64,000 nt of DNA, from the sequence record OK040806, one strand, 5' to 3'. Origin of the DNA: Escherichia phage CL1. The translations under genes and the position numbers were made by a program. This document shows positions 21,485 through 36,034 of this stretch, in pieces (the stretch's first letter is position 1; every line of letters starts with the position of its first letter). The notes below the pieces were generated by a model that was not told the DNA's origin, did not search any database, and worked only from the letters and a program-made list of their open reading frames with translations.

Positions 21485-22033
21485 ATGAAGAAATTGATTC
21501 TAGGCTTGTGCTTAATGTTTACAGCACAATTATCTTATGCAGTTGACTGCCCAGAGCTATCAATTAGCCAAAAAGTTAACATGTTAAAAGCTTACCAGTA
21601 TGGTGAGAATAATATGGGGAAAGGCTGGGGTATTACTCTAGCAGCTATAGCCTTACAAGAGTCAGAGTTAGGTCTGAAGGTAGAGAATAAAAAGACCCAC
21701 GACTATGGTATTTTCCAGAATCACTTGAAGACTGTTGTAAAGCGTAACAAAATTAGTCCTAATGTGGCTAAAAAGAAACTCTTAAAAGATTTTGACTATG
21801 CAGCAAAAGAGACACATAAAGAGCTTGAGTTTTGGACTAAGGTGCATGGCCACCCGAAGTCAAAGAAGACTTTACAAAAAGTTTTAGCATCATATAATGC
21901 TGGGTATTCGTACAAAATCCCTAAAGCTAAGAAATACTCTCAAGACGTCTATAACAATATGAAAGTTATCGCTCAATGTGAATTTGCAACAAACATTTCT
22001 AAGGTAAATCATGAAAAAATTAAGAAAGTCTGA
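21485..22033 (+). CDS. secreted lytic-transglycosylase-like (SLT domain) protein
   Basis: Signal-peptide-like N-terminus MKKLILGLCLMFTAQLSYA; SLT-like motifs QESELG, YGIFQN, SYNAGY. Confidence 0.5.
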   Translation: MKKLILGLCLMFTAQLSYAVDCPELSISQKVNMLKAYQYGENNMGKGWGITLAAIALQESELGLKVENKKTHDYGIFQNHLKTVVKRNKISPNVAKKKLLKDFDYAAKETHKELEFWTKVHGHPKSKKTLQKVLASYNAGYSYKIPKAKKYSQDVYNNMKVIAQCEFATNISKVNHEKIKKV

Positions 22034-23745: not shown

Positions 23746-24011
23746 CAGAGAATGAAGATACTTTCTATGTAGAAGGGTACTTACTGCTACCACGACCAAA
23801 AGAAACTTATGTGCGGGTTGATTTCTCACCAACCATTATGGATAACGTGATGTGTCATATCTTTATGCAAGGTGTCACAGCACAGCTTAAGCATGTTGGA
23901 AAAGAGTGCAAAATAAAGGTTGACACTCATCCAGAAATCAAAGAGAATCACTACACATGGTTCTTACCAGACTCTAAAGAAATCTTAGCAGTTCTTAAAA
24001 CGAGGAAATGA
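23742..24011 (+). CDS. hypothetical protein
   Basis: 89 aa; start overlaps upstream stop. Confidence 0.45.
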   Translation: MTENEDTFYVEGYLLLPRPKETYVRVDFSPTIMDNVMCHIFMQGVTAQLKHVGKECKIKVDTHPEIKENHYTWFLPDSKEILAVLKTRK

Positions 24012-24319
24012 TTATGCAATTCCAGCCAACCAATCGTGGATTTTCTTATGCAGAATTTAAAGATGCTAAAGGGGAAATTTGTACTTTACAGGAGAGTTCA
24101 TCATATGAACCATGTATTTGGTTAGGTGCTAAAGAGGTCTCTGTTCAGTACCTAGATGGTGGCTGGAAAACACTTGATATCCCATCATTAGTAGGCAAAG
24201 ATTTTGTAGGTAACCAAAGAATGAAACTCAACCAAGAACAGGTGAAAGAGTTATTGCCGTACCTTCAGTACTTTGCTGAAAATGGTGAATTACCAACAGA
24301 GGAACTTACAAATGGGTGA
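24008..24319 (+). CDS. hypothetical protein
   Basis: 103 aa; ATGA overlap with upstream gene. Confidence 0.45.
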   Translation: MIMQFQPTNRGFSYAEFKDAKGEICTLQESSSYEPCIWLGAKEVSVQYLDGGWKTLDIPSLVGKDFVGNQRMKLNQEQVKELLPYLQYFAENGELPTEELTNG

Positions 24320-24716
24320 CTGTGCAGATGATGCAGACCGTTGGGCTGAACTTCAAGACTTAAGAGCAGAGTTTAGAGACCTCTTAGTGAGGTCTTCTAA
24401 AACAAATGTAGAGTACACACAAAAGGATTTTCCAAAGGTTCCTTTATATGTTATACACCAAAATAATCTAATGAACTCTGGATTAAGTTTGCAACAAAGG
24501 ATGGAAATTTGCCTAGCAAGGTATTACATTAATGTTGACGCCAAAGTTGGTGAATTGATTAAGTGTCCGTGCTGTAATCTTGAATTTAAGAAGAAGTCAT
24601 ACCAACAAAAGTTTTGTGGAGTTAAAAAGAGAGGTCGCTCTAACTGTAAAGACTTCTTCTTTAATTTCACTGACTTAAAAAGAAATAACAGAGCTAAGTT
24701 CTTTATTGTGGGGTGA
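24312..24716 (+). CDS. hypothetical Cys-rich protein
   Basis: ATG 24312 after GAGGA; contains CPCCN..C cluster; track start 24273 is TTG. Confidence 0.4.
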   Translation: MGDCADDADRWAELQDLRAEFRDLLVRSSKTNVEYTQKDFPKVPLYVIHQNNLMNSGLSLQQRMEICLARYYINVDAKVGELIKCPCCNLEFKKKSYQQKFCGVKKRGRSNCKDFFFNFTDLKRNNRAKFFIVG

Positions 24717-24718
24717 TT

Positions 24719-25045
24719 ATGGAAGTGAACGGTAAAACCATTGTAGCTGTCATCCAAGATAGTGAAAAAGATATTGGTGTAGCACAAGTCACATATGGTA
24801 ACGGCAAGTTCCTATATGGTGTTGTGGCAATGGTAGGAACAAGAAGTGATACAAAAACTTTTAAAGATTGTGTTGACCTTCTTGAAGAATCCATCCACAA
24901 TCATTGGTGTCTGATATGGATGACTGACAACGAAGTGATAGAACGCTTCAAAAAGATTGATATCAACATTGATAGTATTGAGCATGTTGATTTATATGAG
25001 CTAACTGAGAAGGTAAACTATGAAAGTAATACTAGCCAGAGATAA
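24719..25045 (+). CDS. hypothetical protein
   Basis: ATG 24719; track start 24713 is GTG. Confidence 0.45.
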   Translation: MEVNGKTIVAVIQDSEKDIGVAQVTYGNGKFLYGVVAMVGTRSDTKTFKDCVDLLEESIHNHWCLIWMTDNEVIERFKKIDINIDSIEHVDLYELTEKVNYESNTSQR

Positions 25046-25253
25046 AAAGACCCGCAAGATTGTACGTTCAGCAGTATTCATAGGGAGAGATGAAGTCGTT
25101 CCGTTTGCAGGGGAAGATGTGTTAACTTATAAGAAAGGTTTAAAACGTAAATTCAGTGACCGTTTACGTGGCTTCATATCTGAACCATTAGAAGATTTTA
25201 AAAGTCGCTGTGGTAAAGGCATCATCACTCAAGAGGCAATTATTCATGGCTGA
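25020..25253 (+). CDS. hypothetical protein
   Basis: 77 aa ORF with ATG start. Confidence 0.4.
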   Translation: MKVILARDKKTRKIVRSAVFIGRDEVVPFAGEDVLTYKKGLKRKFSDRLRGFISEPLEDFKSRCGKGIITQEAIIHG

Positions 25254-25446
25254 TTTCTGCAAAGATTGTGCTATCGAAATGTTCGGACGTGATACAGGTG
25301 ACTTAAAAGGTCTTATCACTGAAGATGACTTTAAAGCTGGCTATGCAATGCCAGTAATCTGTGAAGGTTGTGGATGTATCTGGGTAGACCACGAAGGGCA
25401 ACGTGTAAAACCTTCAGAAGATAAAGAATCTTGGGAGAGATGTTAA
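25246..25446 (+). CDS. small zinc-ribbon-like protein
   Basis: CKDC ... CEGCGC four-Cys pattern; ATG 25246 overlapping upstream stop. Confidence 0.4.
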   Translation: MADFCKDCAIEMFGRDTGDLKGLITEDDFKAGYAMPVICEGCGCIWVDHEGQRVKPSEDKESWERC

Positions 25447-26232
25447 ATGGGTATTGTGAAAATCATCAATGGTGATATCTTTGCAGCATTTGATAAAGGT
25501 AAGTTTGATGTCATCGGTCACGGTTGCAACTGTATGAACTTAATGGGTGCAGGTATCGCTGACAAGATTTCTAAACTTTACCCAAAAGCATATGAGACTG
25601 ATACAGAAGTTTATCTGTATGCAGGTGGCATAGGCCACAAGCCCTGTGAGAATTTACTAGGCAATTTCTCTGTAGCACGTTTAAAACAAGGTCGTATAGC
25701 TAACCTTTACACTCAGCTTAAGACTGGTAAAGATGCCCGATACAGTGCTTTAGAGTCATCTTTGAAACAACTTAACAGATACTGTGAAGTAAATCAGTTG
25801 AAGAAAGTTGGCTTGCCTATGATTGGTGCAGGTATCGGTGGGCTAGACCCTCAAGCCGTCACAGTTATCATTAATCAGGTGATGAAGAGTGTAGATGTGT
25901 ATCTGTATGTCTACGAGACAAAGATGTACAACGAGTTACACTCAGGTTGGAAGAACTACTGCGAACCAGAATACTTTGCAGGTGTAGTAACGTTCACAGA
26001 CAATACAGTTACCCTCTTCAGACGAAGAAAAGGTAAGATACATCAAAGTAACCCTCCGGTTGAGAAGATGTCTCTAAGTAACGCTCTAGTTACCCACCTG
26101 TCGAAGAGCAATCACAGGATAGCTGTAACATTTGGTAGTGATGCAGATACATATATCTATGCAAGAACTGATGAGGATATCGAGACGGTCTTCTCTTCAC
26201 CAGAAGTTACCTTTTTAGGCGCAAAGAACTAA
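25447..26232 (+). CDS. macro-domain-like protein (putative ADP-ribose binding/hydrolase) with C-terminal extension
   Basis: INGDIF..DVIGHGCNCMNLMGAGIA and VGLPMIGAGIGGLDP resemble the two conserved macro-domain glycine-rich motifs. Confidence 0.45.
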   Translation: MGIVKIINGDIFAAFDKGKFDVIGHGCNCMNLMGAGIADKISKLYPKAYETDTEVYLYAGGIGHKPCENLLGNFSVARLKQGRIANLYTQLKTGKDARYSALESSLKQLNRYCEVNQLKKVGLPMIGAGIGGLDPQAVTVIINQVMKSVDVYLYVYETKMYNELHSGWKNYCEPEYFAGVVTFTDNTVTLFRRRKGKIHQSNPPVEKMSLSNALVTHLSKSNHRIAVTFGSDADTYIYARTDEDIETVFSSPEVTFLGAKN

Positions 26233-26304
26233 GAAAATCTGTATAATATTCACAATAGACTAAGCCTTTCTTATCTGGTAAATTTTTTCAGGTAAGGAGG
26301 GCTT

Positions 26305-26500
26305 TTTTTATTTCAAGATTGTGCAGGTAGAGTTCTGTAGAGAAATCTGTAGAGAGAATTTTGAACTCCAAAGAGAAAATTCATTTTCAAACTGTGCAGG
26401 TAATCTCCAAAGAGCTTTTTCATTTTCAAAACGTGCAGACCCCGCTCAGGTCGGGCAAGAAAAATCATTTTAGAATTGTGCAGGTAGGTGGGTGCAGGTG
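26305..26500. repeat. degenerate direct repeats TTTCAA(A)NTGTGCAGGTA (4 copies) plus tandem duplication of a ~38-bp unit
   Basis: Copies near 26315, 26383, 26423, 26471; unit CTCCAAAGAG..CATTTTCAAA..GTGCAG repeated at 26368-26445; no credible coding frame. Confidence 0.5.
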
Positions 26501-26662
26501 GGAATGTCGCCATTTCTCACAAGGCTACCACATCTGGAAATAAAAGTCAACAGAAAAATTTGTAGCGGATTGAAAAATAATTCTTGATTGTAGTTCTGTT
26601 TTGTGGTAGTCGCGCGCACCCGTTTCATTACAATTTTGCAAAAAATATTTTTAAAATTCCTA

Positions 26663-26691
26663 TTGACTCTTTGAGTATGGTTATCTAATAT
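26663..26691 (+). promoter_or_regulatory. sigma70-like promoter (TTGACT-N17-TAATAT) for the small-ORF array
   Basis: TTGACT 26663-26668, TAATAT 26686-26691, about 50 nt upstream of ATG 26742. Confidence 0.55.
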
Positions 26692-26741
26692 TTGCATCAG
26701 ACGGGCAAGCCAGCCCACTTCCTAAACTGGAGAATCTAAAA

Positions 26742-26948
26742 ATGCTTTACAGTCGCGAATTGATGGTTACAACTAACGTTAACACAGGTGTAAAACGTTT
26801 CTACATGCAAATCTGCGGCGTATGGTCCAGAATATCAGAAGATGACTATTGCAACTATGTAGGAACGGCTATTAATTCTAATTGCTATCTGACAAGAAAC
26901 ACTAAGAAATTTACAAGGCAGACAGCGATTTACTACTACGACAAATAA
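26742..26948 (+). CDS. array ORF 1, hypothetical (68 aa)
   Basis: ATG preceded by conserved CTAAACTGGAGAATCTAAAA. Confidence 0.5.
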   Translation: MLYSRELMVTTNVNTGVKRFYMQICGVWSRISEDDYCNYVGTAINSNCYLTRNTKKFTRQTAIYYYDK

Positions 26949-27036
26949 AGTACTTTACAGGGGGCTTAAAAGCTGATATCTTAAGCCCCAGATAAAGAGC
27001 TTTACTAAATTAACCCTTAAACTAGGAGATTCAAAA
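26949..27036 (+). repeat. type A intergenic cassette (copy 1, variant)
   Basis: GGGGCTTAA..TTAAGCCCC hairpin + AGATAAAGAGCTTTAC + CTAGGAGATTCAAAA leader. Confidence 0.6.
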
Positions 27037-27417
27037 ATGGCTTATCGTGCACCGAAATTCATCAACAAAGACAACTTCCGCAACGCACTGGAGAAGTCAC
27101 TTGATGAAAAATTTAACGGCAAATTGATTGTTGTTCACGCATTCAATTTTAAGTATGATATTAACGGGAATAAAATCAACCATTACACGGCAACCATGTT
27201 AGATGGTACGCTATCAAGTGAAAAAGCCGTACTGAATGCACTTGCAGGACGTGGTAAAAACCTGATAAGATGCGATAAGAGACGTTATCAGGGTGGCGCA
27301 TATGGTTATGATGATGCTGTTTATCATCTTGAAAATATGGGCTATTCAGTGGAAAAAGCTGGAGTGTCTCAAATAATCGGCAGTGATGGTTATGTAACAA
27401 TCTTCAAAATTAACTAA
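27037..27417 (+). CDS. array ORF 2, hypothetical (126 aa)
   Basis: Conserved leader AAACTAGGAGATTCAAAAATG. Confidence 0.55.
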   Translation: MAYRAPKFINKDNFRNALEKSLDEKFNGKLIVVHAFNFKYDINGNKINHYTATMLDGTLSSEKAVLNALAGRGKNLIRCDKRRYQGGAYGYDDAVYHLENMGYSVEKAGVSQIIGSDGYVTIFKIN

Positions 27418-27505
27418 TAAAGTACTTTACAAGGGGCTTATAGTTCGATAAAGTAAGCCCCAGATAAAGAGCTTTACCACTAAATCCTAAATTGGAGATT
27501 CAAAA
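27418..27505 (+). repeat. type A intergenic cassette (copy 2)
   Basis: TTTACA-N17-TAAAGT promoter-like element overlapping hairpin GGGGCTTATAGTTCGATAAAGTAAGCCCC, then AGATAAAGAGCTTTAC and conserved leader. Confidence 0.6.
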
Positions 27506-27763
27506 ATGGCTATCATCAAAAACGTTGTAATTACTGCAAAGACTCGTGATGACGCTCGCATCATGGCGAAAAAGTTAGGCGGGAAAGTGGTTGACAACGG
27601 AAAACAATCTGCTGTAAGATGGGGCGTGAAGGCTGATAAAAAGTTAACCTTAAAACGCAGTTCAAATAACCTCTTTAAAGGTGTAAAATCACTCGGTAAA
27701 GTGAACGTGTTTACTAAACAAGGTTACAAAATGCACTTATCATTAACTGGCAATTTAATCTGA
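27506..27763 (+). CDS. array ORF 3, hypothetical basic protein (85 aa)
   Basis: Conserved leader; Lys-rich. Confidence 0.55.
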   Translation: MAIIKNVVITAKTRDDARIMAKKLGGKVVDNGKQSAVRWGVKADKKLTLKRSSNNLFKGVKSLGKVNVFTKQGYKMHLSLTGNLI

Positions 27764-27852
27764 TAAAGTACTTTACAAGGGGCTTATAGTTCGATAAAGT
27801 AAGCCCCAGATAAAGAGCTTTACTAACTAAATCCTAAACTGGAGATTCTAAA
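27764..27852 (+). repeat. type A intergenic cassette (copy 3)
   Basis: Near-identical to copy 2. Confidence 0.6.
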
Positions 27853-28365
27853 ATGAAAACTGTAGACGCTACCTTTGAAGTTGTAAAAGAAAAATTCACC
27901 ATTATTTATGAAGCTGTCAATTGCTTTGAAGCAAGCCATAATCTTGATAATTGGAAGTTTACAGATGACCATCAAGGCGGCGTGACGATTAAAAATCCTA
28001 ACTGTCAGAGTAATGAATTTAAATATGCAATCCCTTTGCATTACAGCCTTAAGCAGCTTTCAAGTGACTATGCAAAACAAGGCCGTGAGAATCCATCGAA
28101 AGAGGCTTACACGAGCTTACAGAAAGAACTAGAAAGGGATTTAGAGGCTTCAGAGTATAACATTGCCGCGAAAGTTGTAGATGCAAACGGTAGCACGGTT
28201 TTAGAGAGTTTTTATATTGGTTATGCTTTCGATTGGTGCTACAGTGACGGCGATGATTTAGATGACAGACTAAAAGAGGAAGTGAACAACGCAGACGCAG
28301 AATCTGAAGTATTAGAACGCTTGGAAGCATTAAAAGATTCAGTGATGAATATCTTTAAGAACTAA
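27853..28365 (+). CDS. array ORF 4, hypothetical acidic protein (170 aa)
   Basis: Conserved leader; acidic C-terminal region DGDDLDDRLKEEVNNADAESE. Confidence 0.55.
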   Translation: MKTVDATFEVVKEKFTIIYEAVNCFEASHNLDNWKFTDDHQGGVTIKNPNCQSNEFKYAIPLHYSLKQLSSDYAKQGRENPSKEAYTSLQKELERDLEASEYNIAAKVVDANGSTVLESFYIGYAFDWCYSDGDDLDDRLKEEVNNADAESEVLERLEALKDSVMNIFKN

Positions 28366-28453
28366 ATAGATTTCTTTACACGGGGCTAACAAGCGGATAT
28401 GATAGCCCCAGATAAAGAGCTTTACTACTAAATCCTAAACTGGAGACTCTAAA
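28366..28453 (+). repeat. type A intergenic cassette (copy 4, variant loop)
   Basis: GGGGCTA..TAGCCCC hairpin + AGATAAAGAGCTTTAC. Confidence 0.55.
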
Positions 28454-28750
28454 ATGAAATTATCGAATAAAGTTCGTGAAAACCTTAGTAAATTACTCAA
28501 CAAAATTGATTTTATCGAGACATCAAGAAATAATCATGATGTTATGGAATGGTTGCACGGCAAAATAAAAGGCCGTCGCGTAGTGATTTGCTTATGGAAT
28601 AGTTGCAGGGAGTATAAAAAGCCTGTATTGCAAATTAATGTTTATGATGATACTTTTAAAAGTCCTGTAAAGTCTAAAAGCGATTTATTAGAATCCTATG
28701 AGATAACTGTAAATGGCAAAGTATCACGTAAAGAGGAAACACCATGTTAA
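28454..28750 (+). CDS. array ORF 5, hypothetical (98 aa)
   Basis: Conserved leader. Confidence 0.55.
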   Translation: MKLSNKVRENLSKLLNKIDFIETSRNNHDVMEWLHGKIKGRRVVICLWNSCREYKKPVLQINVYDDTFKSPVKSKSDLLESYEITVNGKVSRKEETPC

Positions 28751-29076
28751 TGACTGGTATCACTGCAATCATTGCCATTTTCGCGCTATATAAGGCATAT
28801 AAAGCCTATAATCTAGCAAATAAGGCAATCACACAGCAAGTTAGTAATAACCTTGTAGAGAGCTTTCTAGGGCGTTTAAGTGATGAGCAAATAAAGCGGC
28901 TAGAGATGAGCTTCAGATATAAAGCGAAAACCTATCAGATAAGTGACATCTTCAAAGAGGATTTTCAGCTTGTCGATGATTATAACTCACTGATAAATGC
29001 TTTAAATATCAGTGACTTAAAAGATTATTACGCTGTAATTGTCCAAGAACTGAACAAACGAAAACAAAACTGTTGA
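28744..29076 (+). CDS. array ORF 6, membrane protein (110 aa)
   Basis: ATGTTAA overlap with ORF 5 stop; N-terminal TM helix GITAIIAIFALY. Confidence 0.5.
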   Translation: MLMTGITAIIAIFALYKAYKAYNLANKAITQQVSNNLVESFLGRLSDEQIKRLEMSFRYKAKTYQISDIFKEDFQLVDDYNSLINALNISDLKDYYAVIVQELNKRKQNC

Positions 29077-29162
29077 CACTGATTTTTAGATAACCTAAAT
29101 TACTAATCAACGGGAGGGATGACCTCCCACTAAACAAAGTCCTTAAACTAGGAGATTCAAAA
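29073..29162 (+). repeat. type B cassette (copy 1): promoter + GGGAGG..CCTCCC leader hairpin
   Basis: TTGACA 29073-29078, N17, TAAATT 29096-29101; leader AATCAACGGGAGGGATGACCTCCCAC; then AAAGTCCTTAAACTAGGAGATTCAAAAATG. Confidence 0.6.
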
Positions 29163-29435
29163 ATGTATACTACTAATAACGGTCGTACTCTAAATGTAAC
29201 TTTGCGCCACTATGTTAACGGCGTGATGCACTTTGAAGATTTACAAGCTGAACAACATATCTTAGATTGGCAACTTGCAGGACTACAAAAAACTGCTACA
29301 GGATACGGGAAAAAGATTCCAACTAGTTGGAAAGTATACTATGAAGGGCGTTTGCGCAGAATTTATCAAGATGTATACAGCAATAGCGCAACAAGTTACA
29401 TCATGGTAAAAGGTAAAAAATTACACTTAGTATAA
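29163..29435 (+). CDS. array ORF 7, hypothetical (90 aa)
   Basis: Conserved leader. Confidence 0.55.
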   Translation: MYTTNNGRTLNVTLRHYVNGVMHFEDLQAEQHILDWQLAGLQKTATGYGKKIPTSWKVYYEGRLRRIYQDVYSNSATSYIMVKGKKLHLV

Positions 29436-29521
29436 AGTACTTTACAAGGGGCTTATAGTTCGATAGAGTAAGCCCCAGATAAAGAGCTTTACTACTCAAT
29501 CCTAAATTGGAGAACTTAAAA
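29436..29521 (+). repeat. type A intergenic cassette (copy 5)
   Basis: Same hairpin and AGATAAAGAGCTTTAC element. Confidence 0.6.
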
Positions 29522-29926
29522 ATGGCTATTAATAACCGTGAGTTATCAATCTTAAAAGCACGTTTGACCGTTAACCGGATTAATGTTATTACGTCATCAG
29601 CACCGGACGAAACATTACACAACATTATTGGGAAGATTCAAAGTGTTATCTTAGACGTTGAAAGCGTAAAAAACTCATTGGCTGACGTTGCAGCAGGTAT
29701 CACGCTAGACGGTGCACAATATGAAATGGCTGACATGTTAGGCAAATCAAAGGTAATGAATAAAGAGCTTGATTTAAAAATGTTCCGTTTTGCCGTGAAA
29801 GTGTGGCTATCTGTCGAGTATGACGCAAATTTTGCAATCGCTGACTTTTTCGCAACATGGTTGCAACGTAATTTAACAAATTATGATTTTCGTGATATCT
29901 GTGACGCAATTTACGCAGAACTCTAA
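29522..29926 (+). CDS. array ORF 8, hypothetical (134 aa)
   Basis: ATG 29522 follows conserved leader; track start 29507 lies in the leader. Confidence 0.5.
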   Translation: MAINNRELSILKARLTVNRINVITSSAPDETLHNIIGKIQSVILDVESVKNSLADVAAGITLDGAQYEMADMLGKSKVMNKELDLKMFRFAVKVWLSVEYDANFAIADFFATWLQRNLTNYDFRDICDAIYAEL

Positions 29927-29935
29927 AAAATTTTA

Positions 29936-30025
29936 TTGACACTGATTTTTAAAACAAGTAAATTACTAATCAACGGGAGGGATGACCTCCCCACTAAGTA
30001 AAGTCCTTAAACTAGGAGATTCAAA
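29936..30025 (+). repeat. type B cassette (copy 2)
   Basis: TTGACA 29936-29941, TAAATT 29959-29964, GGGAGGGATGACCTCCCC hairpin. Confidence 0.6.
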
Positions 30026-30226
30026 ATGGCTATTATCAACGGTTTAAACATTGAAACTACTCATATCAAAGATATCAAAGTTGGCGATGTAGTCCTTTCC
30101 CACGGCGTAGAAAAAACTGTCACTGCAAAGGATATTAAAGAGGATTCTTTCATGGGTAGGACTCTCTTCGGTGATTCTTATTGCTTAGGTTATCTTGCAG
30201 TTTTAAAAGTTGTCAAAAATAACTGA
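30026..30226 (+). CDS. array ORF 9, hypothetical (66 aa)
   Basis: Conserved leader. Confidence 0.5.
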   Translation: MAIINGLNIETTHIKDIKVGDVVLSHGVEKTVTAKDIKEDSFMGRTLFGDSYCLGYLAVLKVVKNN

Positions 30227-30321
30227 TAAAGTACTTTACAAGGGGCTTATAGTTCGATAAAGTAAGCCCCAGATAAAGAGCTTTACCACTAAATCAAGTC
30301 CTTAAACTAGGAGATTCAAAA
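30227..30321 (+). repeat. type A intergenic cassette (copy 6)
   Basis: Same hairpin and leader. Confidence 0.6.
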
Positions 30322-30885
30322 ATGAAATGCTATCACGGAACTACACTCAAAAACTTTGTAAACCTGCTGAATGGTGGCGATAAGCCTGAAGGTATCTGGA
30401 ACTGTTCCTACATGGACGATTGTTTCTATGTTTACCCAATGAATAAGGTTATCAAAATGGGATGTCTGGAAGATGAAGAAGATTCTTACATCCGTGAACG
30501 CTGCATTCAAAGTGCCTTAGAGTCGGGGCTTATTACGGCTGCTTTCCAAATGGAAACGCAGGACGTGATTGTTATTGAAATGGATATCCCAGAGGAAGAA
30601 CTAGAGGACGATTATTCTTGTGACAACATGAGCGAAATTGCCAGCTTTACCGGATACTTTGATAAAAATTGGATTGTTAGCATCCACTCAACGAAATTTA
30701 GTGCGATGTATGCACCTTTCTTTGTACCTGATACGAAAAACCGCAACTTGGGATATGTTGACGATGATTTGTTGAGTATTGCAAAAATTGTACAGAATAG
30801 CGGTGATAGTTCCGTGTTTTGTGACCTACTGGATAAAATCACGGAAAACCTCACAGAACGCAATTTAAAGGACTTTTTAGGATAA
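30322..30885 (+). CDS. array ORF 10, hypothetical acidic protein (187 aa)
   Basis: Conserved leader; acidic stretch DIPEEELEDDYSCD. Confidence 0.55.
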   Translation: MKCYHGTTLKNFVNLLNGGDKPEGIWNCSYMDDCFYVYPMNKVIKMGCLEDEEDSYIRERCIQSALESGLITAAFQMETQDVIVIEMDIPEEELEDDYSCDNMSEIASFTGYFDKNWIVSIHSTKFSAMYAPFFVPDTKNRNLGYVDDDLLSIAKIVQNSGDSSVFCDLLDKITENLTERNLKDFLG

Positions 30886-30948
30886 GCAGTACAAAGACAC
30901 CAACTTTTAACTTAAGGCCCACACAGGGCCATTTAGAGGGCTTCAAAC

Positions 30949-31182
30949 ATGCTTACAACCGTTTATCTTATCCTTTCTATTTGTAATGGTCATTCATGTG
31001 ATTTTAAAGGGCTTGAGGAGTTTACAGGAAGTAAAGAAAATGCCGTTCAGGTCTGTCAGATAGCAAGACAAGACTACCCCGCCAGTGATGATATACAATG
31101 TTACTTTAAGACAGAAGATGAAGAGGGTATCTATTTCGATAGTGTAGACGGGCAATATGAAATTATCATTGAAAAAGACTAG
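30949..31182 (+). CDS. array ORF 11, small protein with hydrophobic N-terminus (possible secreted/lipoprotein)
   Basis: MLTTVYLILSICNG; no standard cassette upstream, GGCCCACACAGGGCC hairpin instead. Confidence 0.4.
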   Translation: MLTTVYLILSICNGHSCDFKGLEEFTGSKENAVQVCQIARQDYPASDDIQCYFKTEDEEGIYFDSVDGQYEIIIEKD

Positions 31183-31271
31183 ACAAGCCTGATAAAAGTC
31201 TGTAAATTGTCAATCAACGGGAGGCGATAACCTCCCAACTAAACAAAGTCCTTAAACTAGGAGATTCAAAA
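31183..31271 (+). repeat. type B cassette (copy 3, variant)
   Basis: TAAATT + GGGAGGCGATAACCTCCC hairpin + conserved leader. Confidence 0.5.
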
Positions 31272-31613
31272 ATGGCTTATGTAACCGTAATTACCAATAA
31301 AGAAGATTCATCTTGGTCAACTCAAGTAAGCGATAAGATGTCACCTATGCAGTGCCTAAAATACTTTGAGCAATGGAACAAAGGCGAGGATACCAGCCCC
31401 TTTCAAGTGATGCAGATTATCCATACAGATAACGAAGGGAATAAAACTGTTTTGAATAGTGAGTACTATGCAACCAGATTCGAAACGAGAAGTAAAGCAA
31501 TGAAGCTCTTACGTGAATCCGGTTATTCTCATATTGCCGCGCTAATCTGGGATGACCTGCTAAAAAATCAGCGTATCAGCTACGTAAAACCTGAAAAAAT
31601 ATTCATCAGTTAA
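31272..31613 (+). CDS. array ORF 12, hypothetical (113 aa)
   Basis: Conserved leader. Confidence 0.55.
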   Translation: MAYVTVITNKEDSSWSTQVSDKMSPMQCLKYFEQWNKGEDTSPFQVMQIIHTDNEGNKTVLNSEYYATRFETRSKAMKLLRESGYSHIAALIWDDLLKNQRISYVKPEKIFIS

Positions 31614-31739
31614 TCAATAACTTACAAAAAACTTTTAAAAAAGTGTTGACAATACCCCTTGACATTGGTAACTTTGTTCGAGGGGGTTTATCTAAAAGGG
31701 ATTAACTTAAAAGATTCTTTATAGATAAACTTAAAAAAT

Positions 31740-31836
31740 TGCTTGCAATCAGATATCAAAACAAGTAAATTACTAATCAACGGTGAGGGAATGAACTTCC
31801 TCACTAAATAAAGTCCTTAAACTAGGAGATTCAAAA
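31740..31836 (+). repeat. type B cassette (copy 4, variant)
   Basis: TAAATTACTAATCAACGG + GAGGGAATGAACTTCCTC hairpin + leader; preceded by extra TTGACA element near 31647. Confidence 0.5.
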
Positions 31837-32367
31837 ATGAACAAATTTCAAGCTATCAACTACATTCGCTCAAATGCTGTAATGTCTAAGCCTGTTAAAG
31901 ATACCTATGAATTTCGCTGCAATGGGGTACACTTTGCAACCATTACCAAATCAGAAAACGGGGTTTATTACATTCATCGCCGTAATGTTTATACTGTTGT
32001 AGTCTCTCACTTTATGAAAGCTGTAGCGGAATTATTACCGTTATTCTTAGAGATTTACTTGGATGAGTGTAAAAACGTTCATAGCCACGTTAAAAACCTT
32101 TTAAATAGCTATAAAATGGCTTATGAACGTTCAATCAAGTCCTTAAACAAGTTCTATAAAGCCCCTGTAAATACTGTTTCAATGGCCTACGCTGCAAATG
32201 GTGAAAGAGTAAGACTATCCGATGTGGAAGATATCGAGCTTTACGACCATCGCCCTAACGGTTACTCTCAGACCCTCGGTGAAGGTTTAACGTTCAATAT
32301 CAAGAACTTAGAAAAAACTTTAAAAGATATTGAAAAAGATATTGACGAGACAATCAAAAATCTGTAA
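31837..32367 (+). CDS. array ORF 13, hypothetical (176 aa)
   Basis: Conserved leader. Confidence 0.55.
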   Translation: MNKFQAINYIRSNAVMSKPVKDTYEFRCNGVHFATITKSENGVYYIHRRNVYTVVVSHFMKAVAELLPLFLEIYLDECKNVHSHVKNLLNSYKMAYERSIKSLNKFYKAPVNTVSMAYAANGERVRLSDVEDIELYDHRPNGYSQTLGEGLTFNIKNLEKTLKDIEKDIDETIKNL

Positions 32368-32432
32368 ATTATCAATCAACGGGAGGGATAACCTCCCTAC
32401 TAAGCAAAGTCCTTAAACTAGGAGTTATCAAG
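32368..32432 (+). repeat. type B cassette (copy 5)
   Basis: TAAATT + GGGAGGGATAACCTCCC hairpin + leader. Confidence 0.55.
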
Positions 32433-32705
32433 ATGGAACACGTCGAACTGACCACACTTTTACAAATTGCAACCGACAAAGAGGATGTAGCATTATTCCA
32501 CCGCATCGAAAGTGATTTATTCAATGGTGAAATCATTAAAGAATCTTACGAAGTTGTCGGATTCAAAGACGGTAAAGCGTTCGGATTCTTTGACCTCGAC
32601 AAAGGCAAAGCGGTTACAAAATATGATGTTTTATCTTGTGAGATTCTTACAAAATACAACGAAAAAAAGGCTTGCAACATACGCCAACATGCAGTAAATT
32701 ACTAA
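32433..32705 (+). CDS. array ORF 14, hypothetical (90 aa)
   Basis: Leader variant CTAGGAGTTATCAAGATG. Confidence 0.5.
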   Translation: MEHVELTTLLQIATDKEDVALFHRIESDLFNGEIIKESYEVVGFKDGKAFGFFDLDKGKAVTKYDVLSCEILTKYNEKKACNIRQHAVNY

Positions 32706-32762
32706 TCAACGGGAGGGATAACCTCCCTACTGAATAAAGTCCTTAAACTAGGAGATTCTAAA
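32706..32762 (+). repeat. type B cassette (copy 6)
   Basis: TAAATT + GGGAGGGATAACCTCCC hairpin + leader. Confidence 0.55.
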
Positions 32763-33011
32763 ATGGCAACTATCCGCGCAACTATCAATGCTTATGGCTG
32801 TTATACTCTGGACGTTAAATTTGATATTGGTGGAACTGATGAATGCTTTTCATTAGTGAAGACAGTTATCAAGCAAGTTATCCCAGATTATAACCCTACT
32901 GATGACTTCTGGAAAGATGCTGTAAAAGAGGCATTAAACGATGAGCATCACTATCATTACTGGGGTGACTTGATTGTCTCCCTGTACTACAATAAACAAG
33001 GTTACAACTAA
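32763..33011 (+). CDS. array ORF 15, hypothetical (82 aa)
   Basis: Conserved leader. Confidence 0.55.
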   Translation: MATIRATINAYGCYTLDVKFDIGGTDECFSLVKTVIKQVIPDYNPTDDFWKDAVKEALNDEHHYHYWGDLIVSLYYNKQGYN

Positions 33012-33049
33012 TCGACGCAGCGGGGCTAAATAGCCCCAGATACCTTTAC

Positions 33050-33071
33050 AGCCCCTTAAATGGGCTTTTTT
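33050..33071 (+). terminator. intrinsic terminator ending the plus-strand array
   Basis: AGCCC-CTTAAAT-GGGCT then TTTTTT; preceded by GGGGCTAAATAGCCCC hairpin. Confidence 0.55.
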
Positions 33072-34650
33072 ACGTCTTATTAAATCCTTTCCCTTTCCTT
33101 TCCAGAATCTTACTAGACCTTAAAAGCAATAACTCTATAGTCTACTCTATAGCCTTTTATCAAATCAACTTAAATATAAGCCCATAACCCGAAAGGGAAG
33201 GGCAACCATTTAAACGCTCTATAAAGCCCTATAACAGCCTTATCAACCTAACTTAAGGGATTGCATTACTCCACGCTTAAAAGCTCTTTATAAAGCTTCT
33301 CAGAGCCTTAAAAGAATCTTATAAGGGTGTAAGCTTTATCATCTCGTTAGTATCTTGTGAATAACTAAAAAGGGCTTGTTAGTGTCTTAAAAGTATGTTA
33401 TAGGGGCTATAAAGTTGCTTAAAAGTTGCTATAAAGTTACGTAAATGCTAGCCCCCTTAACATTTTCTTAACAAATTTTTAACAATCCCTACATAGTTAT
33501 GCTTTTAAGGCACTTGTTAACAACTTGTTAGCCCCTTGTTAAATCTCTGTTAAGACCACGTAAAAGCCTTGTAAGAGTCTTTGACATAGCCTTAAAAGCT
33601 CCTGTAAAGCCCTATAAAGAGCTTTCTATATAGTTGGGGTGCAATTACTAGGGAGAGGCTTAAAAGAGCTTACAAAGAGCTATAGAGAGCTTTTAAGAGG
33701 GCTATTTAAAGGGTCACTAAGAGGGAAAGGGAACTATAGACCAAGAGATAGTGACCATGTTAATAGCTTGTTAAAAAGATTAAACACTTGTTAGGAACTT
33801 GTTAATTATCTTAACAAAATAACTCTTAAAAATTAACTTGTTAGCTCTTGTTAGTCATCTGTTAAGACTCTGTAAAGCCTACGTATCAACTGTTAAAAAA
33901 CTGTTAAGCTCTTGTTAGTTCTGTTAAGAATCTGTTAAGACCTCTGAAGAGATGTTAAGAAGATGTAGCAACTGTTAAGAGATTGTTAATGATATTTTAA
34001 AATTTTGCAAAGGGGATGTTACAGGGATGTTAAGGGCTACCAAGCAGATATATATCTTCTACAGATATTTTTGAGTTCCTTCAAAGACCCTAAAAAATGA
34101 CTTGATAGCTCTATTTTATAAAAATTTTAAAATTCTGAATAATTACCTAGACAGTCTTTTAAAAATACAGGTAGAAACAGGCTTATAAGATACCTTGTTA
34201 GTACCGTGTTAGACCTTGTGAGATAAGGTCTGTAAAGATATTCCTGTTAAGTTTGCTAAAACAGTCTATATAGAGGCTTAGTATTTCCTAGTGAACACCT
34301 ATAGAGAGTGTCATAGCTGACATAGAGATTAAGAGGTGTATAGGAGCTTCTAAGAGGGTATAGAGGGATGGTTAAGGTGATTGTATAGGTTGTTAAGAAG
34401 GCTTGTTAGAAGAGTGTTTAAAGGGCTTGTTAGAGGGTTATTTAGAAGGCTTATACAGAGGGGCTATTAAGACCACTAGATAGTGACTAAGATACTATAT
34501 AGTACTATATAACTATATAGAGAGTAAGATTAAGAAGGTTGTTAAGAAGGGTAGATATTTTATTCACATATGATGGTGACCCAGAGGTTGGGACAACCGA
34601 TGAAATTTTATAAAAATTAAAAAGCCCCCAATTAAGGAGGCTCTTAAGAT
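33072..34650. repeat. 1.6-kb ORF-free AT-rich region densely packed with short direct repeats (TGTTAAG/CTTGTTAG family, TATAAAG/TTAAAAG words)
   Basis: More than 25 copies of NTGTTAA/G, clustered 33500-34020 and 34190-34560; palindromes near 34044 and 34490-34520; sits between converging plus and minus gene blocks. Confidence 0.6.
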
Positions 34651-34653
34651 ATT

Positions 34654-35202
34654 TTAAATCAGTGTTTCCAGAACTGTCTTCAGTGATGACTTGGTTGTCT
34701 GATAAAAATGAGCAAATCCATTGTTACTATCGAATATCTGCATCATGATATCATCTCCCTTGATTGGGTACACTCGGATATCATAGTGGAACCCATTAAA
34801 GACAGCAGAACCATTACAGAATGAACTAAAGTCATCCACTGAGATATACTCTTCATGACCTGTGATTTTTATACAAACACCTTTACTCGGTCTCTTAGGG
34901 TTGATATCTTCCATCACAGACATATTCTGTCCACCAAGAGACACCATAGTGACCACTTTACGGTTCTTCTGTCTAAAGTACATCTTAACTTTCTGCAAAG
35001 TGTCTTCATAGAACGGATAAGACCTTTCTACAAAGATTCCTTCAAGTGGCTCTTTACCATTTTCAACTTCTCGGTTATGCCGTACTGCAAAGATAATCTG
35101 TTCGAACCAGTCAAGATTTTCTTCGGAGAGTGCTTCCCGAATATCACTCCAATCAAGGACTAGATAGTTACCTTCAACTTCTTTTAAGTTATCTTTTTCC
35201 AT
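34654..35202 (-). CDS. hypothetical protein
   Basis: Track ORF 34654-35247 (start there is TTG); first ATG at 35202. Confidence 0.4.
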   Translation of the reverse strand: MEKDNLKEVEGNYLVLDWSDIREALSEENLDWFEQIIFAVRHNREVENGKEPLEGIFVERSYPFYEDTLQKVKMYFRQKNRKVVTMVSLGGQNMSVMEDINPKRPSKGVCIKITGHEEYISVDDFSSFCNGSAVFNGFHYDIRVYPIKGDDIMMQIFDSNNGFAHFYQTTKSSLKTVLETLI

Positions 35203-35215
35203 ATCTATCACACCA

Positions 35216-35680
35216 TTATCGTAAAACTTGGTAAGCTGGAACTGCAAACTTGTTGCCGTTGTTCTTAATGAGGTCTTCTTCTGTTACTAAGAATGTAATC
35301 CCACATAAGTGTGTGTAGTGGCTATCATACTCAAATATTTTAAGTAAGTATTTACCATCGTGATAAACAGATTCTACTACACCTTTTGCAACAATCTTTC
35401 CAGTCTTGAAATCTTTAAGATGGTATACATTTCCAACTTTAGGAACTGTTTTCATCTCAGGTTCTTTTAGTTTCTCACCAGCTTCTACATCACCTAGTAA
35501 GTGAGAACTTTCAAAAGCTACATGTCTCATATAAGCTTCTGAGCATTCCAAGATAAAGCAATGCACAAGAGCCTTAGCAGCATGTCTTGAACAATTCAAC
35601 TTATCACAAATCTCTTTGTACATTTTATCTTTAGTTGAATTGTTAAGCATTGCTTTTTGAACTACTACTTTAACTTTCAT
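35216..35680 (-). CDS. hypothetical protein
   Basis: 154 aa ORF with ATG start. Confidence 0.45.
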   Translation of the reverse strand: MKVKVVVQKAMLNNSTKDKMYKEICDKLNCSRHAAKALVHCFILECSEAYMRHVAFESSHLLGDVEAGEKLKEPEMKTVPKVGNVYHLKDFKTGKIVAKGVVESVYHDGKYLLKIFEYDSHYTHLCGITFLVTEEDLIKNNGNKFAVPAYQVLR

Positions 35681-35733
35681 TTCGCTACCTTCTAAGTTTC
35701 TACAAAGGGGCTATCAAGTAACCCCTCAAGCTA

Positions 35734-35958
35734 CTACTCAGACTTTTCAGTTTTCTTTTCAGATTTCTTACTAGTCTTCTTCTCAGCTTTCTGCTCAGGT
35801 TCCTTCTCAGAAGTTGCCTTGATAACCATATCAAGAAGCTCTGATAAGTCACTCTTCAGCAAAGTAACAGGCTGCTCATTGTAGAAGTTTTTGTCAAGAT
35901 AAACTTTGAACTCTTCTATAGAAGGAAATCCAAAAATTGGTACAGGTGTCTTAATCAT
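35734..35958 (-). CDS. hypothetical protein with Lys/Glu-rich C-terminus
   Basis: 74 aa; ATG start. Confidence 0.4.
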   Translation of the reverse strand: MIKTPVPIFGFPSIEEFKVYLDKNFYNEQPVTLLKSDLSELLDMVIKATSEKEPEQKAEKKTSKKSEKKTEKSE

Positions 35959-36034
35959 TACTTAGTTTCTCCATAGGCATCTTTTAAGATTGCCTTGTTA
36001 ATCATTTCAGCGATTGCAAAACGAACACATACAG

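What the first reader, a model, noticed from the sequence alone, without database searches (positions are those of the whole stretch)
29107..29162. Leader hairpin pairing an SD-like GGGAGG with an anti-SD-like CCTCCC in cassette B transcripts
In all six type B cassettes the predicted 5' UTR begins with AATCAACGGGAGGGAT(G/A)ACCTCCC, a perfect hairpin whose arms are a Shine-Dalgarno-like and an anti-Shine-Dalgarno-like hexamer. The real RBS (CTAGGAG) lies 20-25 nt downstream. A conserved 5' stem-loop could stabilise the mRNA, be a processing site, or modulate ribosome loading. The same unit recurs at 29965-30025, 31210-31271, 31770-31836, 32375-32432 and 32713-32762.
Basis: seen in the sequence. 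Interest (0 to 1): 0.45.

Follow-up and report, generated by a model that had tools for sequence, protein, structure and literature searches.

The report
Early-promoter cassette with 5' RNA hairpin
A Felix O1-like phage puts the same small unit (host-type promoter, short G/C-rich RNA hairpin, ribosome-binding site) in front of many early genes; the hairpin is real and conserved by structure, most likely shields the start of each mRNA, and its likeness to ribosome-binding sequences is incidental.

Summary
The window is a Felixounavirus (99.7% identical to Escherichia phage C600M2). The six units exist. All six carry a sigma-70-type promoter (-35, 17 nt, TAAATT), then 10 nt ending in ATCAAC, a stable hairpin, an A-rich spacer and a strong ribosome-binding site. 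Only four have the exact quoted sequence. A seventh, diverged copy lies at 26663-26744.

In 140 homologous leaders from three Ounavirinae genera I found 42 different hairpins. All start at the same distance from the -10. Stems are 4-9 bp with compensatory and G.U changes; loops are not conserved. G.U pairs nearly always have the G in the 5' arm, which points to an RNA structure on the sense strand.

Only 12 of 42 hairpins keep both an SD-like and an anti-SD-like arm, so that reading is not supported. No U-tract follows the stem, so it is not an intrinsic terminator.

Orthologous genes carry cassette A in one phage and cassette B in another, and genes come and go at cassette borders. This matches the PeSL cassettes of T4-like phages.

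Best explanation: a sequence-independent stem-loop about 3-4 nt from the predicted 5' end protects early mRNAs, as in ompA and the T7 gene 10 leader. No 5' ends have been mapped. It is a new member of a known kind, of modest interest.

The parts
26663..26744 (+). Cassette B0, a diverged seventh copy and the first promoter of the array: -35 TTGACT 26663-26668, -10 TAATAT 26686-26691, SD GGAG 26729-26732, ATG 26742
26703..26716 (+). B0 hairpin GGGC-AAGCCA-GCCC (4 bp), not SD-like
29073..29165 (+). Cassette B1: -35 TTGACA 29073-29078 (holds the stop codon of the upstream ORF), -10 TAAATT 29096-29101, predicted start 29108-29109, SD 29151-29154, ATG 29163
29112..29128 (+). B1 hairpin GGGAGG-GAUGA-CCUCCC
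29936..30028 (+). Cassette B2: -35 TTGACA 29936-29941, -10 TAAATT 29959-29964, SD 30015-30018, ATG 30026
29975..29991 (+). B2 hairpin GGGAGG-GAUGA-CCUCCC
31180..31274 (+). Cassette B3: -35 TAGACA 31180-31185, -10 TAAATT 31203-31208, SD 31260-31263, ATG 31272
31219..31236 (+). B3 hairpin GGGAGG-CGAUAA-CCUCCC (6-nt loop)
31743..31839 (+). Cassette B4: -35 TTGCAA 31743-31748, -10 TAAATT 31766-31771, SD 31825-31828, ATG 31837
31782..31805 (+). B4 hairpin GGUGAGGGA-AUGAAC-UUCCUCACU (9 bp, one compensatory U-A pair, two G.U pairs)
32342..32435 (+). Cassette B5: -35 TTGACG 32342-32347, -10 TAAATT 32365-32370 (its TAA is the stop codon of the upstream ORF), SD 32421-32424, ATG 32433
32381..32397 (+). 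B5 hairpin GGGAGG-GAUAA-CCUCCC
32672..32765 (+). Cassette B6: -35 TTGCAA 32672-32677, -10 TAAATT 32695-32700, SD 32751-32754, ATG 32763
32711..32727 (+). B6 hairpin GGGAGG-GAUAA-CCUCCC

Best explanation
Each unit is a self-contained early-expression cassette. It consists of an A-rich upstream stretch, a host sigma-70 promoter (-35, 17 nt, TAAATT), a 10-nt stretch ending in the invariant (A/T)TCAAC, a G/C-rich RNA stem-loop, an A-rich single-stranded spacer and a strong SD plus ATG.

Host RNA polymerase is predicted to start at the C or A of AUCAAC. The transcript would then begin with about 3-4 unpaired nucleotides followed directly by the hairpin.

I propose that the hairpin works as a sequence-independent 5'-terminal stem-loop. 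It would limit access of the 5'-end-dependent decay machinery of E. coli (RppH and RNase E), prolonging the life and raising the yield of the short early mRNAs. This is how the ompA and RNAI 5' stem-loops and the T7 gene 10 leader stem-loop work.

Because the cassette sequence recurs before many genes, it also offers homology for recombination that swaps, inserts and deletes small early genes, as described for PeSL cassettes of T4-like phages.

Shown here: the repeats, promoter-like geometry, RNA-level structural conservation, fixed 5' position, lack of a terminator tail, and cassette swapping between phages. Inferred, not shown: the start site, the effect on half-life, and any recombination mechanism.
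For: Promoter geometry. All seven copies have a -35, a 17-nt spacer and a TAnnnT -10, followed by a stem that starts 10-11 nt later.

Fixed position. In 140 homologous leaders from 34 loci, the first paired base lies 10 nt after the -10 in 129, 11 nt in 9 and 12 nt in 2. The distance from the stem end to the SD varies from 12 to 23 nt. The 5' position is therefore what is conserved.

Structure rather than sequence. There are 42 distinct hairpins, with stems of 4-9 bp and loops of 4-9 nt of varied sequence. On a structure-anchored alignment, 99.2% of cells pair against 85.5% in shuffles. Five of 9 pairs show changes on both sides, 31 such cells against 7.1 expected, and 0 of 500 shuffles reach the observed score. 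Sliding the partner drops pairing to 62-84%.

RNA on the sense strand. In the 36-hairpin set, 18 of 19 G.U pairs have G in the 5' arm, and the sense RNA is the more stable strand in 24 of 36.

Own-transcript function. The first promoter of the array lies behind a terminator-like hairpin at about 26264-26311 and a gene-free stretch, so I would not expect read-through to reach it. It still keeps a hairpin in the window and in the relatives.

Not a terminator. 41 of 42 hairpins have 3 or fewer U in the 8 nt after the stem, and the terminator scan finds none at these sites.

Known mechanism. A 5' stem-loop leaving no more than 2-4 unpaired nucleotides stabilises RNAI and ompA mRNA (PMC2948425; PMC3997798). 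The T7 phi10 transcript starts with GGGAGACC-ACAAC-GGUUUCCC, also 8 bp with a 5-nt loop. That stem-loop raises expression 1.5-3-fold and raises mRNA abundance when placed upstream of the SD (PMC6146998).

Timing. Felix O1 ORFs 20-22 in this array are maximally expressed at 5 min (PMC3185647).
Against: No 5' end has been mapped for any Felixounavirus, so the hairpin's place in the transcript rests on promoter geometry alone.

A 3-4-nt tail sits at the upper limit of the protective range, and from my own knowledge RppH can act on 2-3 unpaired nucleotides.

Type A cassettes are interchangeable with type B in front of orthologous genes. Their hairpin lies over the promoter spacer and -10, upstream of their own predicted start. 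A function shared by both hairpins would therefore have to act on read-through RNA, not on the 5' end.

The cassettes sit in one co-directional array, so each B hairpin is also internal in transcripts that start further upstream.

Concerted evolution of repeats could keep the position fixed without selection on the spacing.
Confidence: 0.5

Rival explanations
1. The hairpin acts on read-through RNA from upstream cassettes. It would work as an attenuator or terminator of upstream transcription, the role proposed for PeSL stem-loops. Alternatively it would be a barrier that leaves a protected 3' end on the upstream cistron after cleavage in the A/U-rich spacer.
For: The PeSL stem-loop of phage RB49/phi1 cut lacZ expression about as much as rrnB T1 (PMC2839356). 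Both A and B cassettes place a G/C-rich sense-strand hairpin between the upstream stop codon and the downstream SD. A and B are interchangeable before orthologous genes. Upstream ORFs end inside the B promoters, so the hairpin is the first non-coding element after each gene.
Against: There is no U-tract: 41 of 42 hairpins have 3 or fewer U in the next 8 nt, and the terminator scan makes no call here. The first promoter of the array lies behind a terminator-like hairpin and a gene-free stretch, yet still has a hairpin. The 5' boundary is fixed relative to the -10, not relative to the upstream stop codon.
Confidence: 0.25
2. The hairpin, together with the invariant AUCAAC, is a binding site for a phage or host protein. 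Candidates are a nut/boxB-like antitermination site, a translational operator, or a mark for an early-mRNA-specific nuclease that times the early-to-middle switch.
For: The (A/T)TCAAC motif in front of the stem is present in nearly all leaders; the exceptions carry ATCAGAC. Several loops are GNRA tetraloops (GAAA, GAGA) or purine-rich pentaloops (GAUAA, GAUGA). From my own knowledge these resemble the boxB loops of lambda and P22. The Felix O1 paper states that temporal control in these phages is unexplained (PMC3185647).
Against: Loop length runs from 4 to 9 nt and loop sequence varies widely (AACA, AAUGA, AAGAUAAA, AAGUUAUAA). Stem sequence varies too. No boxA-like sequence is visible in the leaders. 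There is no Rfam match. The suggested RegB-like nuclease of phage Mordin is not supported for the window homologue.
Confidence: 0.08
3. The SD-like 5' arm and anti-SD-like 3' arm act on ribosomes. The arms would serve as a masked decoy or standby SD, or as a switch in which CCUCCC can sequester the true SD.
For: In the window, six of seven hairpins contain GGAGG or GAGG in the 5' arm and CCUCC or CCUC in the 3' arm. In relatives, 27 of 42 distinct hairpins keep an SD-like 4-mer in the 5' arm.
Against: Only 12 of 42 hairpins keep both arms SD-like and anti-SD-like, and 14 have neither. The hairpin closes with probability 0.90-1.00 in the six type B copies (0.73 in the diverged B0), so neither arm is predicted to be free. 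The AUG in the GAUGA loop is 1 nt from GGAGG and is lost in the GAUAA and GAAA variants. The true SD pairs with a different conserved UCCU.
Confidence: 0.05
4. The palindrome has no RNA function. It would be a DNA-level feature of a repeat kept uniform by gene conversion, useful only as recombination homology.
For: Cassettes are highly similar within a genome and sit at the borders of gene gains, losses and cassette swaps. The crossover of one PeSL mini-circle in RB49 mapped within the stem-loop (PMC2839356).
Against: Homology for recombination does not require pairing. Yet pairing is kept through compensatory and wobble changes, with a strand-specific G.U polarity. Hairpins differ between copies in one genome while each still pairs.
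Confidence: 0.07

Closest known systems
PeSL (promoter-early stem-loop) cassettes of T4-like phages (Arbiol et al. 2010, PMC2839356; Comeau et al. 2014, PMC4122927)
   Same: Both are repeated intergenic cassettes of roughly 60-100 bp in a region of small genes of unknown function. Both combine a strong sigma-70-type promoter with an A/T-rich upstream stretch, a stable poly-G/poly-C-type stem-loop, and an SD plus start codon at the 3' end. In both, cassettes mark the borders of insertions, deletions and replacements between related phages.
   Different: The host phage belongs to a different subfamily (Ounavirinae, not T4-like). In type B the stem-loop lies downstream of the predicted start, whereas in most PeSLs it lies between -35 and -10 or over the -10; that layout is seen here in type A. 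Terminator activity and mini-circles were shown for PeSLs but are untested here, and no U-tract is present.
5'-terminal stabilising stem-loops of E. coli RNAs (ompA 5' UTR, engineered RNAI, papA)
   Same: A hairpin within a few nucleotides of the 5' end, where the structure matters rather than the sequence. The tail predicted here is 3-4 nt; the documented limit is 2-4 nt (PMC2948425).
   Different: Those cases rest on measured half-lives and mapped ends. Here both are predictions. ompA has a longer UTR with a second protective element (my own knowledge).
Phage T7 gene 10 leader (phi10 transcript)
   Same: The transcript starts with GGGAGACC-ACAAC-GGUUUCCC, 8 bp with a 5-nt loop, an A-U pair at stem position 4 and a G.U at position 5; the GGGAGG-type Felix O1 stem has the same two pairs at positions 4-5, and the more common GGGGAGGG form one position further in. 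An A/U-rich spacer and a strong SD follow. The stem-loop raises mRNA level and expression (PMC6146998, citing Mertens et al. 1996).
   Different: The T7 leader is made by T7 RNA polymerase and starts at the first paired G with no tail. It is a late-gene leader present once. The element here is predicted to be made by host polymerase, has a short tail, and is present in 5-9 copies before early genes. There is no sequence homology beyond the G-rich stem.
Lambda and P22 nut-site boxB hairpins
   Same: A short G/C stem with a purine-rich 4-5-nt loop close to an early promoter.
   Different: There is no boxA. Loop length and sequence are not conserved (4-9 nt). One copy sits at every promoter rather than one per operon. 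No N-like protein has been identified. Not a member.
Intrinsic (rho-independent) terminators
   Same: A G/C-rich hairpin in an intergenic position.
   Different: No U-tract follows the stem. The true terminator of the array is the separate hairpin at 33050-33066 followed by TTTTTT.

Membership tests
PeSL-type regulatory cassette | Sigma-70-like early promoter with an A/T-rich upstream stretch | tested here: met
   -35, 17 nt, TAnnnT in all 7 window copies. TAnnnT is at the expected place in 140 of 140 homologous leaders. A-rich sequence precedes the -35. Promoter activity itself was not measured.
PeSL-type regulatory cassette | Adjacent stable stem-loop, often poly-G followed by poly-C | tested here: met
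   The 5' arm is 96% purine (mostly G) and the 3' arm 96% pyrimidine. Stems are 4-9 bp. Covariation is shown.
PeSL-type regulatory cassette | SD and start codon of the downstream gene at the 3' end of the motif | tested here: met
   GGAG lies 12-23 nt after the stem and the ATG follows.
PeSL-type regulatory cassette | Many copies in a region of small genes of unknown function, at the borders of indels and replacements between related phages | tested here: met
   Seven B and six A cassettes lie between 26.6 and 32.8 kb. All the downstream proteins scanned lack a known function. Gene presence and the A or B type before orthologous genes differ between phages.
PeSL-type regulatory cassette | Stem-loop terminates or attenuates upstream transcription | tested here: inconclusive
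   A sequence proxy only: no U-tract and no terminator call. A reporter assay is needed.
PeSL-type regulatory cassette | Recombination between cassettes yields mini-circles | not testable with these tools
   Requires inverse PCR on infected cells or virion DNA.
5'-terminal stabilising stem-loop (ompA/RNAI type) | Hairpin no more than 2-4 nt from the 5' end of the transcript | tested here: inconclusive
   The predicted start at the 7th or 8th nt after the -10 gives a 3-4-nt tail. No mapped 5' ends were found.
5'-terminal stabilising stem-loop (ompA/RNAI type) | Structure matters, sequence does not | tested here: met
   42 distinct hairpins, compensatory and wobble changes, variable loops.
5'-terminal stabilising stem-loop (ompA/RNAI type) | Lengthens mRNA half-life in an RNase E / RppH-dependent way | not testable with these tools
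   Requires rifampicin-chase half-lives of wild-type, disrupted and restored stems in wild-type, rppH and rne strains.
nut-site boxB | Conserved GNRA-like pentaloop on a short stem, with boxA upstream | tested here: not met
   Loops are 4-9 nt and of varied sequence. No boxA-like motif is visible in the leaders.
Intrinsic terminator | G/C-rich hairpin followed directly by a U-run | tested here: not met
   3 or fewer U in the 8 nt after the stem in 41 of 42 hairpins. Not listed by the terminator scan.
   Both present in 12 of 42 distinct hairpins, neither in 14 of 42.
Any Rfam family | Covariance-model match | tested here: not met
   No relevant hit at E up to 1 in 24000-36000.

The most novel reading that the evidence does not exclude
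The invariant AUCAAC plus the stem-loop is a recognition module read by a phage-encoded factor, such as an antiterminator or an early-mRNA-specific nuclease or repressor. That factor would mark all transcripts of this cassette family and drive the early-to-middle switch, a switch the Felix O1 genome paper describes as unexplained in a phage that has no RNA polymerase or sigma-modifying genes of its own.
Probability: 0.1. Interest if true: 0.65.

Novelty: new member of a known kind. Interest (0 to 1): 0.35.

Why it matters
Felix O1-like phages are widely used for Salmonella and E. coli typing, biocontrol and therapy. Their genome papers nevertheless state that promoters and temporal control are not understood. 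The Felix O1 paper listed these sequences only as direct repeats (PMC3185647).

Recognising them as promoter, 5' hairpin and RBS cassettes has four consequences:
- It gives a concrete promoter map for the early gene array.
- It extends PeSL-style modular gene shuffling beyond T4-like phages.
- It offers a natural series of more than 40 compact 5' stem-loops used with host polymerase, which could serve as expression parts.
- It shows that the SD/anti-SD look of the stem is a by-product of a G-rich stem and not a ribosome signal.

Tried and rejected
RegB lead. The phage Mordin annotation calls the gene after rIIB 'similar to T4 RegB', and RegB cuts GGAG. The window homologue (21485-22033) has no RegB hit in Pfam, only a sub-threshold SLT match, and falls in a PHROG of unknown function. 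Dropped.

Leader peptide. The AUG in the GAUGA loop opens a 4-codon ORF, but it is absent from the GAUAA, GAAA and other variants. Dropped.

Rfam. No relevant match.

Intrinsic terminator. No U-tract.

RNase III site. Stems of 4-9 bp are too short, from my own knowledge.

Plain MAFFT alignment. Alignment A1 misaligned the stems because of indels. I replaced it with a structure-anchored, N-padded alignment, A2. A2 is fitted to the structure, so the percentage paired is inflated. The counts of double changes and the slid controls are the informative part.

Apparent 0.9-kb insertion in C600M2. In one search this was an artefact of joining repeat matches; the gene layout is identical.

A general habit of 5' hairpins at promoters. 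Outside this family, promoter-like sites carry such hairpins at about the background rate: 13 of 193 including the family, against 85 of 3000 random positions.

Wider search. ATCAACGGGG..CCCCAAC in IMG/VR returned mostly chance hits plus Ounavirinae.

Literature. Searches for mapped 5' ends or transcriptomes of Felixounavirus found nothing, and two of them were wasted on loose term settings. The wV8, Felix O1, UAB_Phi87, Felixounavirus-comparison and Bas63 papers do not mention the hairpin.

Full report
**What is there**

The window is a Felix O1-like myovirus, 99.7% identical over the region to Escherichia phage C600M2. About 250 related records exist, nearly all Felixounavirus and its sister genera.

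Between 26.6 and 33.0 kb the + strand carries an array of small genes. Pfam gives them no function, and they fall only in PHROGs of unknown function. The array ends at an intrinsic terminator at 33050-33066. Almost every gene is preceded by one of two repeated intergenic cassettes.

The finding concerns 'type B'. The exact motif GGGAGGGATRACCTCCC occurs four times (0.00 expected). The promoter-proximal motif TAAATTNNYAATCAACGG occurs exactly six times. The RBS block AAGTCCTTAAACTAGGAG occurs exactly seven times.

- The unit at 31219-31236 has a 6-nt loop.
- The unit at 31782-31805 has a 9-bp stem, GGUGAGGGA/UUCCUCACU, with a G-C to U-A double change and two G.U pairs.
- A seventh, diverged unit opens the array at 26663-26744: TTGACT-17-TAATAT, ATCAGAC, GGGC-AAGCCA-GCCC.

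**Anatomy**

Each unit reads as follows:
- an A-rich stretch;
- a -35 hexamer with 4-6 of 6 matches;
- a 17-nt spacer;
- a -10 hexamer, TAAATT (TAATAT in the diverged first unit B0);
- 10 nt ending in ATCAAC;
- the hairpin;
- an A-rich spacer, ACUAAnnAAAG;
- UCCUUAAACUAGGAG, then 8 nt, then ATG.

Upstream ORFs end inside the promoter. Their stop codons lie in the -35 (29074-29076; 31180-31182) or in the -10 (32365-32367), so the hairpin is the first non-coding element.

Under the usual rule that E. coli RNA polymerase starts 7-8 nt after the -10, the transcript would begin (C)AAC, followed at once by the stem. That leaves a 3-4-nt tail.

As RNA the leaders fold with the hairpin in the MFE and centroid structures, with a closing-pair probability of 0.90-1.00. 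A second, weak 4-bp hairpin (UCCU/AGGA) is predicted to cover the true SD.

**Comparative evidence**

I collected early regions from Felixounavirus (Felix O1a, AYO145A, C600M2, DaR-2019b and IMG/VR contigs), Mooglevirus (Mordin, Moogle, Sf19, 3HA14) and Suspvirus (phiSUSP1, EP1, CHB7).

These gave 140 type B leaders in 34 loci, carrying 42 distinct hairpins (a stricter set gave 119 leaders and 36 hairpins).

- *Position.* Every leader has TAnnnT at the expected place. The first paired base lies 10 nt after it in 129 cases, 11 nt in 9 and 12 nt in 2. The distance from the stem to the SD ranges from 12 to 23 nt.
- *Stems.* Stems are 4-9 bp. Examples: GGGAGG/CCUCCC, GGGGAGGG/CCUUCCCC, GGGGAGG/CUUCCCC, GGGGC/GCCCC, GGGGU/GCCCC, GGGC/GCCC, GGGA/UCCC and GGUGAGG/CCUCAC.
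- *Loops.* Loops are 4-9 nt, A-rich and otherwise unconserved: GAAA, GAGA, GAUAA, AAUGA, AACA, AAGAUAAA and others.
- *Covariation.* On a structure-anchored alignment, 99.2% of cells pair against 85.5% in shuffles. Five of nine pairs show changes on both sides, 31 cells against 7.1. In 0 of 500 shuffles is the covariation score reached. Sliding the partner by 1-3 columns lowers pairing to 62-84% with 0-1 double-change pairs. Caveat: the arms were defined from each sequence's own fold, so the percentage paired is inflated by construction.
- *Strand.* 18 of 19 G.U pairs have the G in the 5' arm. The 5' arm is 96% purine and the 3' arm 96% pyrimidine. The sense RNA is more stable than the antisense in 24 of 36 hairpins. 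This points to an RNA structure on the coding strand, not a DNA cruciform.

**The SD/anti-SD reading**

Only 12 of 42 distinct hairpins have both an SD-like 4-mer in the 5' arm and an anti-SD-like 4-mer in the 3' arm. Fifteen have only the first, one only the second, and 14 neither.

At orthologous positions, such as the leader of the 90-aa MYTTNNG gene, the stem is GGGAGG/CCUCCC in the window, GGGGAGG/CUUCCCC in Mordin and GGGGC/GCCCC in Sf19 and 3HA14. The SD look is therefore a by-product of a G-rich stem.

The AUG in the GAUGA loop is not conserved. The stem is not followed by a U-run: 3 or fewer U in the next 8 nt in 41 of 42 hairpins, and the terminator scan makes no call. Rfam has nothing.

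**Cassettes as modules**

Type A cassettes have TTTACA-17-TAnnnT with an 8-10-bp hairpin, GGGGYUUAn..nUAAGCCCC, spanning the spacer and -10, followed by AGAUAAAGAGCUUUAC. I found 120 copies and 46 variants, and 42 of the 46 keep TAnnnT.

They alternate with type B, and the two types are interchangeable:
- The 126-aa gene has A in the window and B in AYO145A.
- The 185-187-aa gene has A in most phages and B in Moogle.
- The 113-aa gene has B in the window, Felix O1 and Moogle, and A in Mordin, SUSP1 and CHB7.
- The 73-aa gene has A in Mordin and B in SUSP1, 3HA14 and CHB7.

Genes are present or absent between phages at cassette borders. For example, Felix O1a lacks the 126-, 85-, 66- and 187-aa genes.

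This is the pattern described for PeSLs in T4-like phages: a sigma-70 promoter with an A/T-rich upstream stretch, a poly-G/poly-C stem-loop 'most commonly between the -35 and -10 or overlapping the -10', and an SD plus ATG. PeSLs mediate insertion, deletion and replacement of small genes of unknown function (PMC2839356; PMC4122927). Type A has the common PeSL layout. Type B is a positional variant with the stem-loop just inside the transcript.

**How it most likely works**

The best-supported mechanism is a 5'-terminal protective stem-loop.

- RNase E cuts much faster when it can reach an unpaired 5'-monophosphate end (PMC3997798).
- A stem-loop that leaves no more than 2-4 unpaired nucleotides stabilises RNAI and accounts for the long life of ompA mRNA (PMC2948425).
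- The closest phage analogue is the T7 phi10 transcript. In the T7 record it starts GGGAGACC-ACAAC-GGUUUCCC, followed by an A/U-rich spacer and AAGGAG. That stem-loop raises mRNA level and expression 1.5-3-fold when placed upstream of the SD (PMC6146998).

Three findings are what this model predicts: the fixed 5' position with a free 3' distance, the free sequence and loop, and retention of a hairpin at the first promoter of the array. That first promoter lies behind a terminator-like hairpin and a gene-free stretch.

The main rival is the PeSL-type role on read-through RNA, as an attenuator or 3' barrier. It is favoured by the interchangeability of A and B and by the reporter result for an RB49 stem-loop. 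It is weakened by the missing U-tract and by the hairpin at the first promoter.

Three further readings are less likely:
- A protein-binding site: loops and stems vary too much.
- A ribosome-directed SD/anti-SD device: the arms are not conserved as such.
- A purely DNA-level repeat: pairing is kept by covariation with strand polarity.

None of the mechanisms has been tested by experiment. No 5'-end or transcriptome data for this phage group were found. RT-PCR timing in Felix O1 places ORFs 16 and 20-22 of this array among the genes maximal at 5 min.

**Novelty and verdict**

The Felix O1 genome paper lists the promoter half of cassette B (TTGACACTGGTTTTTAGATAGATTAAATTACACATCAAC) and cassette A only as direct repeats. 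It did not count them among its predicted promoters. The other Felix O1-group papers I could read do not mention them.

The element is therefore best filed as a new member of a known kind. It is a PeSL-like early regulatory cassette in Ounavirinae, and its stem-loop sits at the predicted 5' end in the manner of the T7 gene 10 and ompA leaders.

Noticed in passing
window 26947-27036, 27418-27506, 27765-27852, 28368-28453, 29434-29521, 30228-30321: Type A cassettes: TTTACA-17-TAnnnT, with an 8-10-bp hairpin (GGGGYUUAn..nUAAGCCCC) spanning the spacer and -10, then the conserved AGAUAAAGAGCUUUAC and the RBS. There are 120 copies and 46 variants in the collected loci. 42 of the 46 keep TAnnnT, and the stems covary, including U.G pairs. 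This is the classical PeSL layout, and type A is interchangeable with type B before orthologous genes.
   Followed up: partly
window 29140-29154 and the same block in every A and B cassette: The conserved UCCU(U)AAACU(A)GGAG forms a weak 3-4-bp hairpin that pairs the true SD. The predicted unpaired probability of the SD is only 0.24-0.36. The block is kept across genera as UCCUAAACUGGAG. It is closer to an SD/anti-SD device than the 5' hairpin is.
   Followed up: partly
window 33547-34251, within the gene-free stretch 33012-34650: A cluster of 7 exact CTGTTAAG plus many TGTTAAG-like variants, between the early array and the convergent minus-strand genes. The whole window has 20 copies against 3.8 expected. 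The same repeats occur in relatives. This could be a binding-site array or an origin.
   Followed up: no
window 26233-26660: A gene-free stretch upstream of the first promoter. It holds a terminator-like hairpin with several G.U pairs plus a U7 run at about 26264-26311, then four copies of (T/G)GTGCAGGT at 26320-26499.
   Followed up: no
L103 11800-11886 and 12470-12561 (IMG/VR 3300042281_000410; also L106): A 67% G+C contig with P2/Mu-like tail genes and no tblastx similarity to the window. It has two cassettes, TTGCNT-17-CATAnT-6 nt-ATCAAC-GGGGnn..nnCCCC-SD-ATG, each preceded by a palindromic operator-like AATAGGCCANTGGCGTATT. The design is the same, down to ATCAACGGGG, in an unrelated phage. 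Whether this is chance or convergence is unresolved.
   Followed up: partly
window 21485-22033: The 182-aa protein after rIIB is annotated in phage Mordin as RegB-like and in CHB7 as a putative lysin. Here it gives only a sub-threshold SLT (lytic transglycosylase) hit and falls in a PHROG of unknown function.
   Followed up: partly
window 14972-15030: One of the best promoter-like sites outside the array (TTGACA-17-TACACT, 10 of 12 matches). It is followed directly by an unrelated hairpin, UCUUUAG-GGGAAG-CUAAAGA, at the predicted start.
   Followed up: no
window 25447-26232: A macro-domain protein (Pfam PF01661, E = 1e-7), annotated in C600M2 as O-acetyl-ADP-ribose deacetylase. It lies just upstream of the cassette array.
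   Followed up: no
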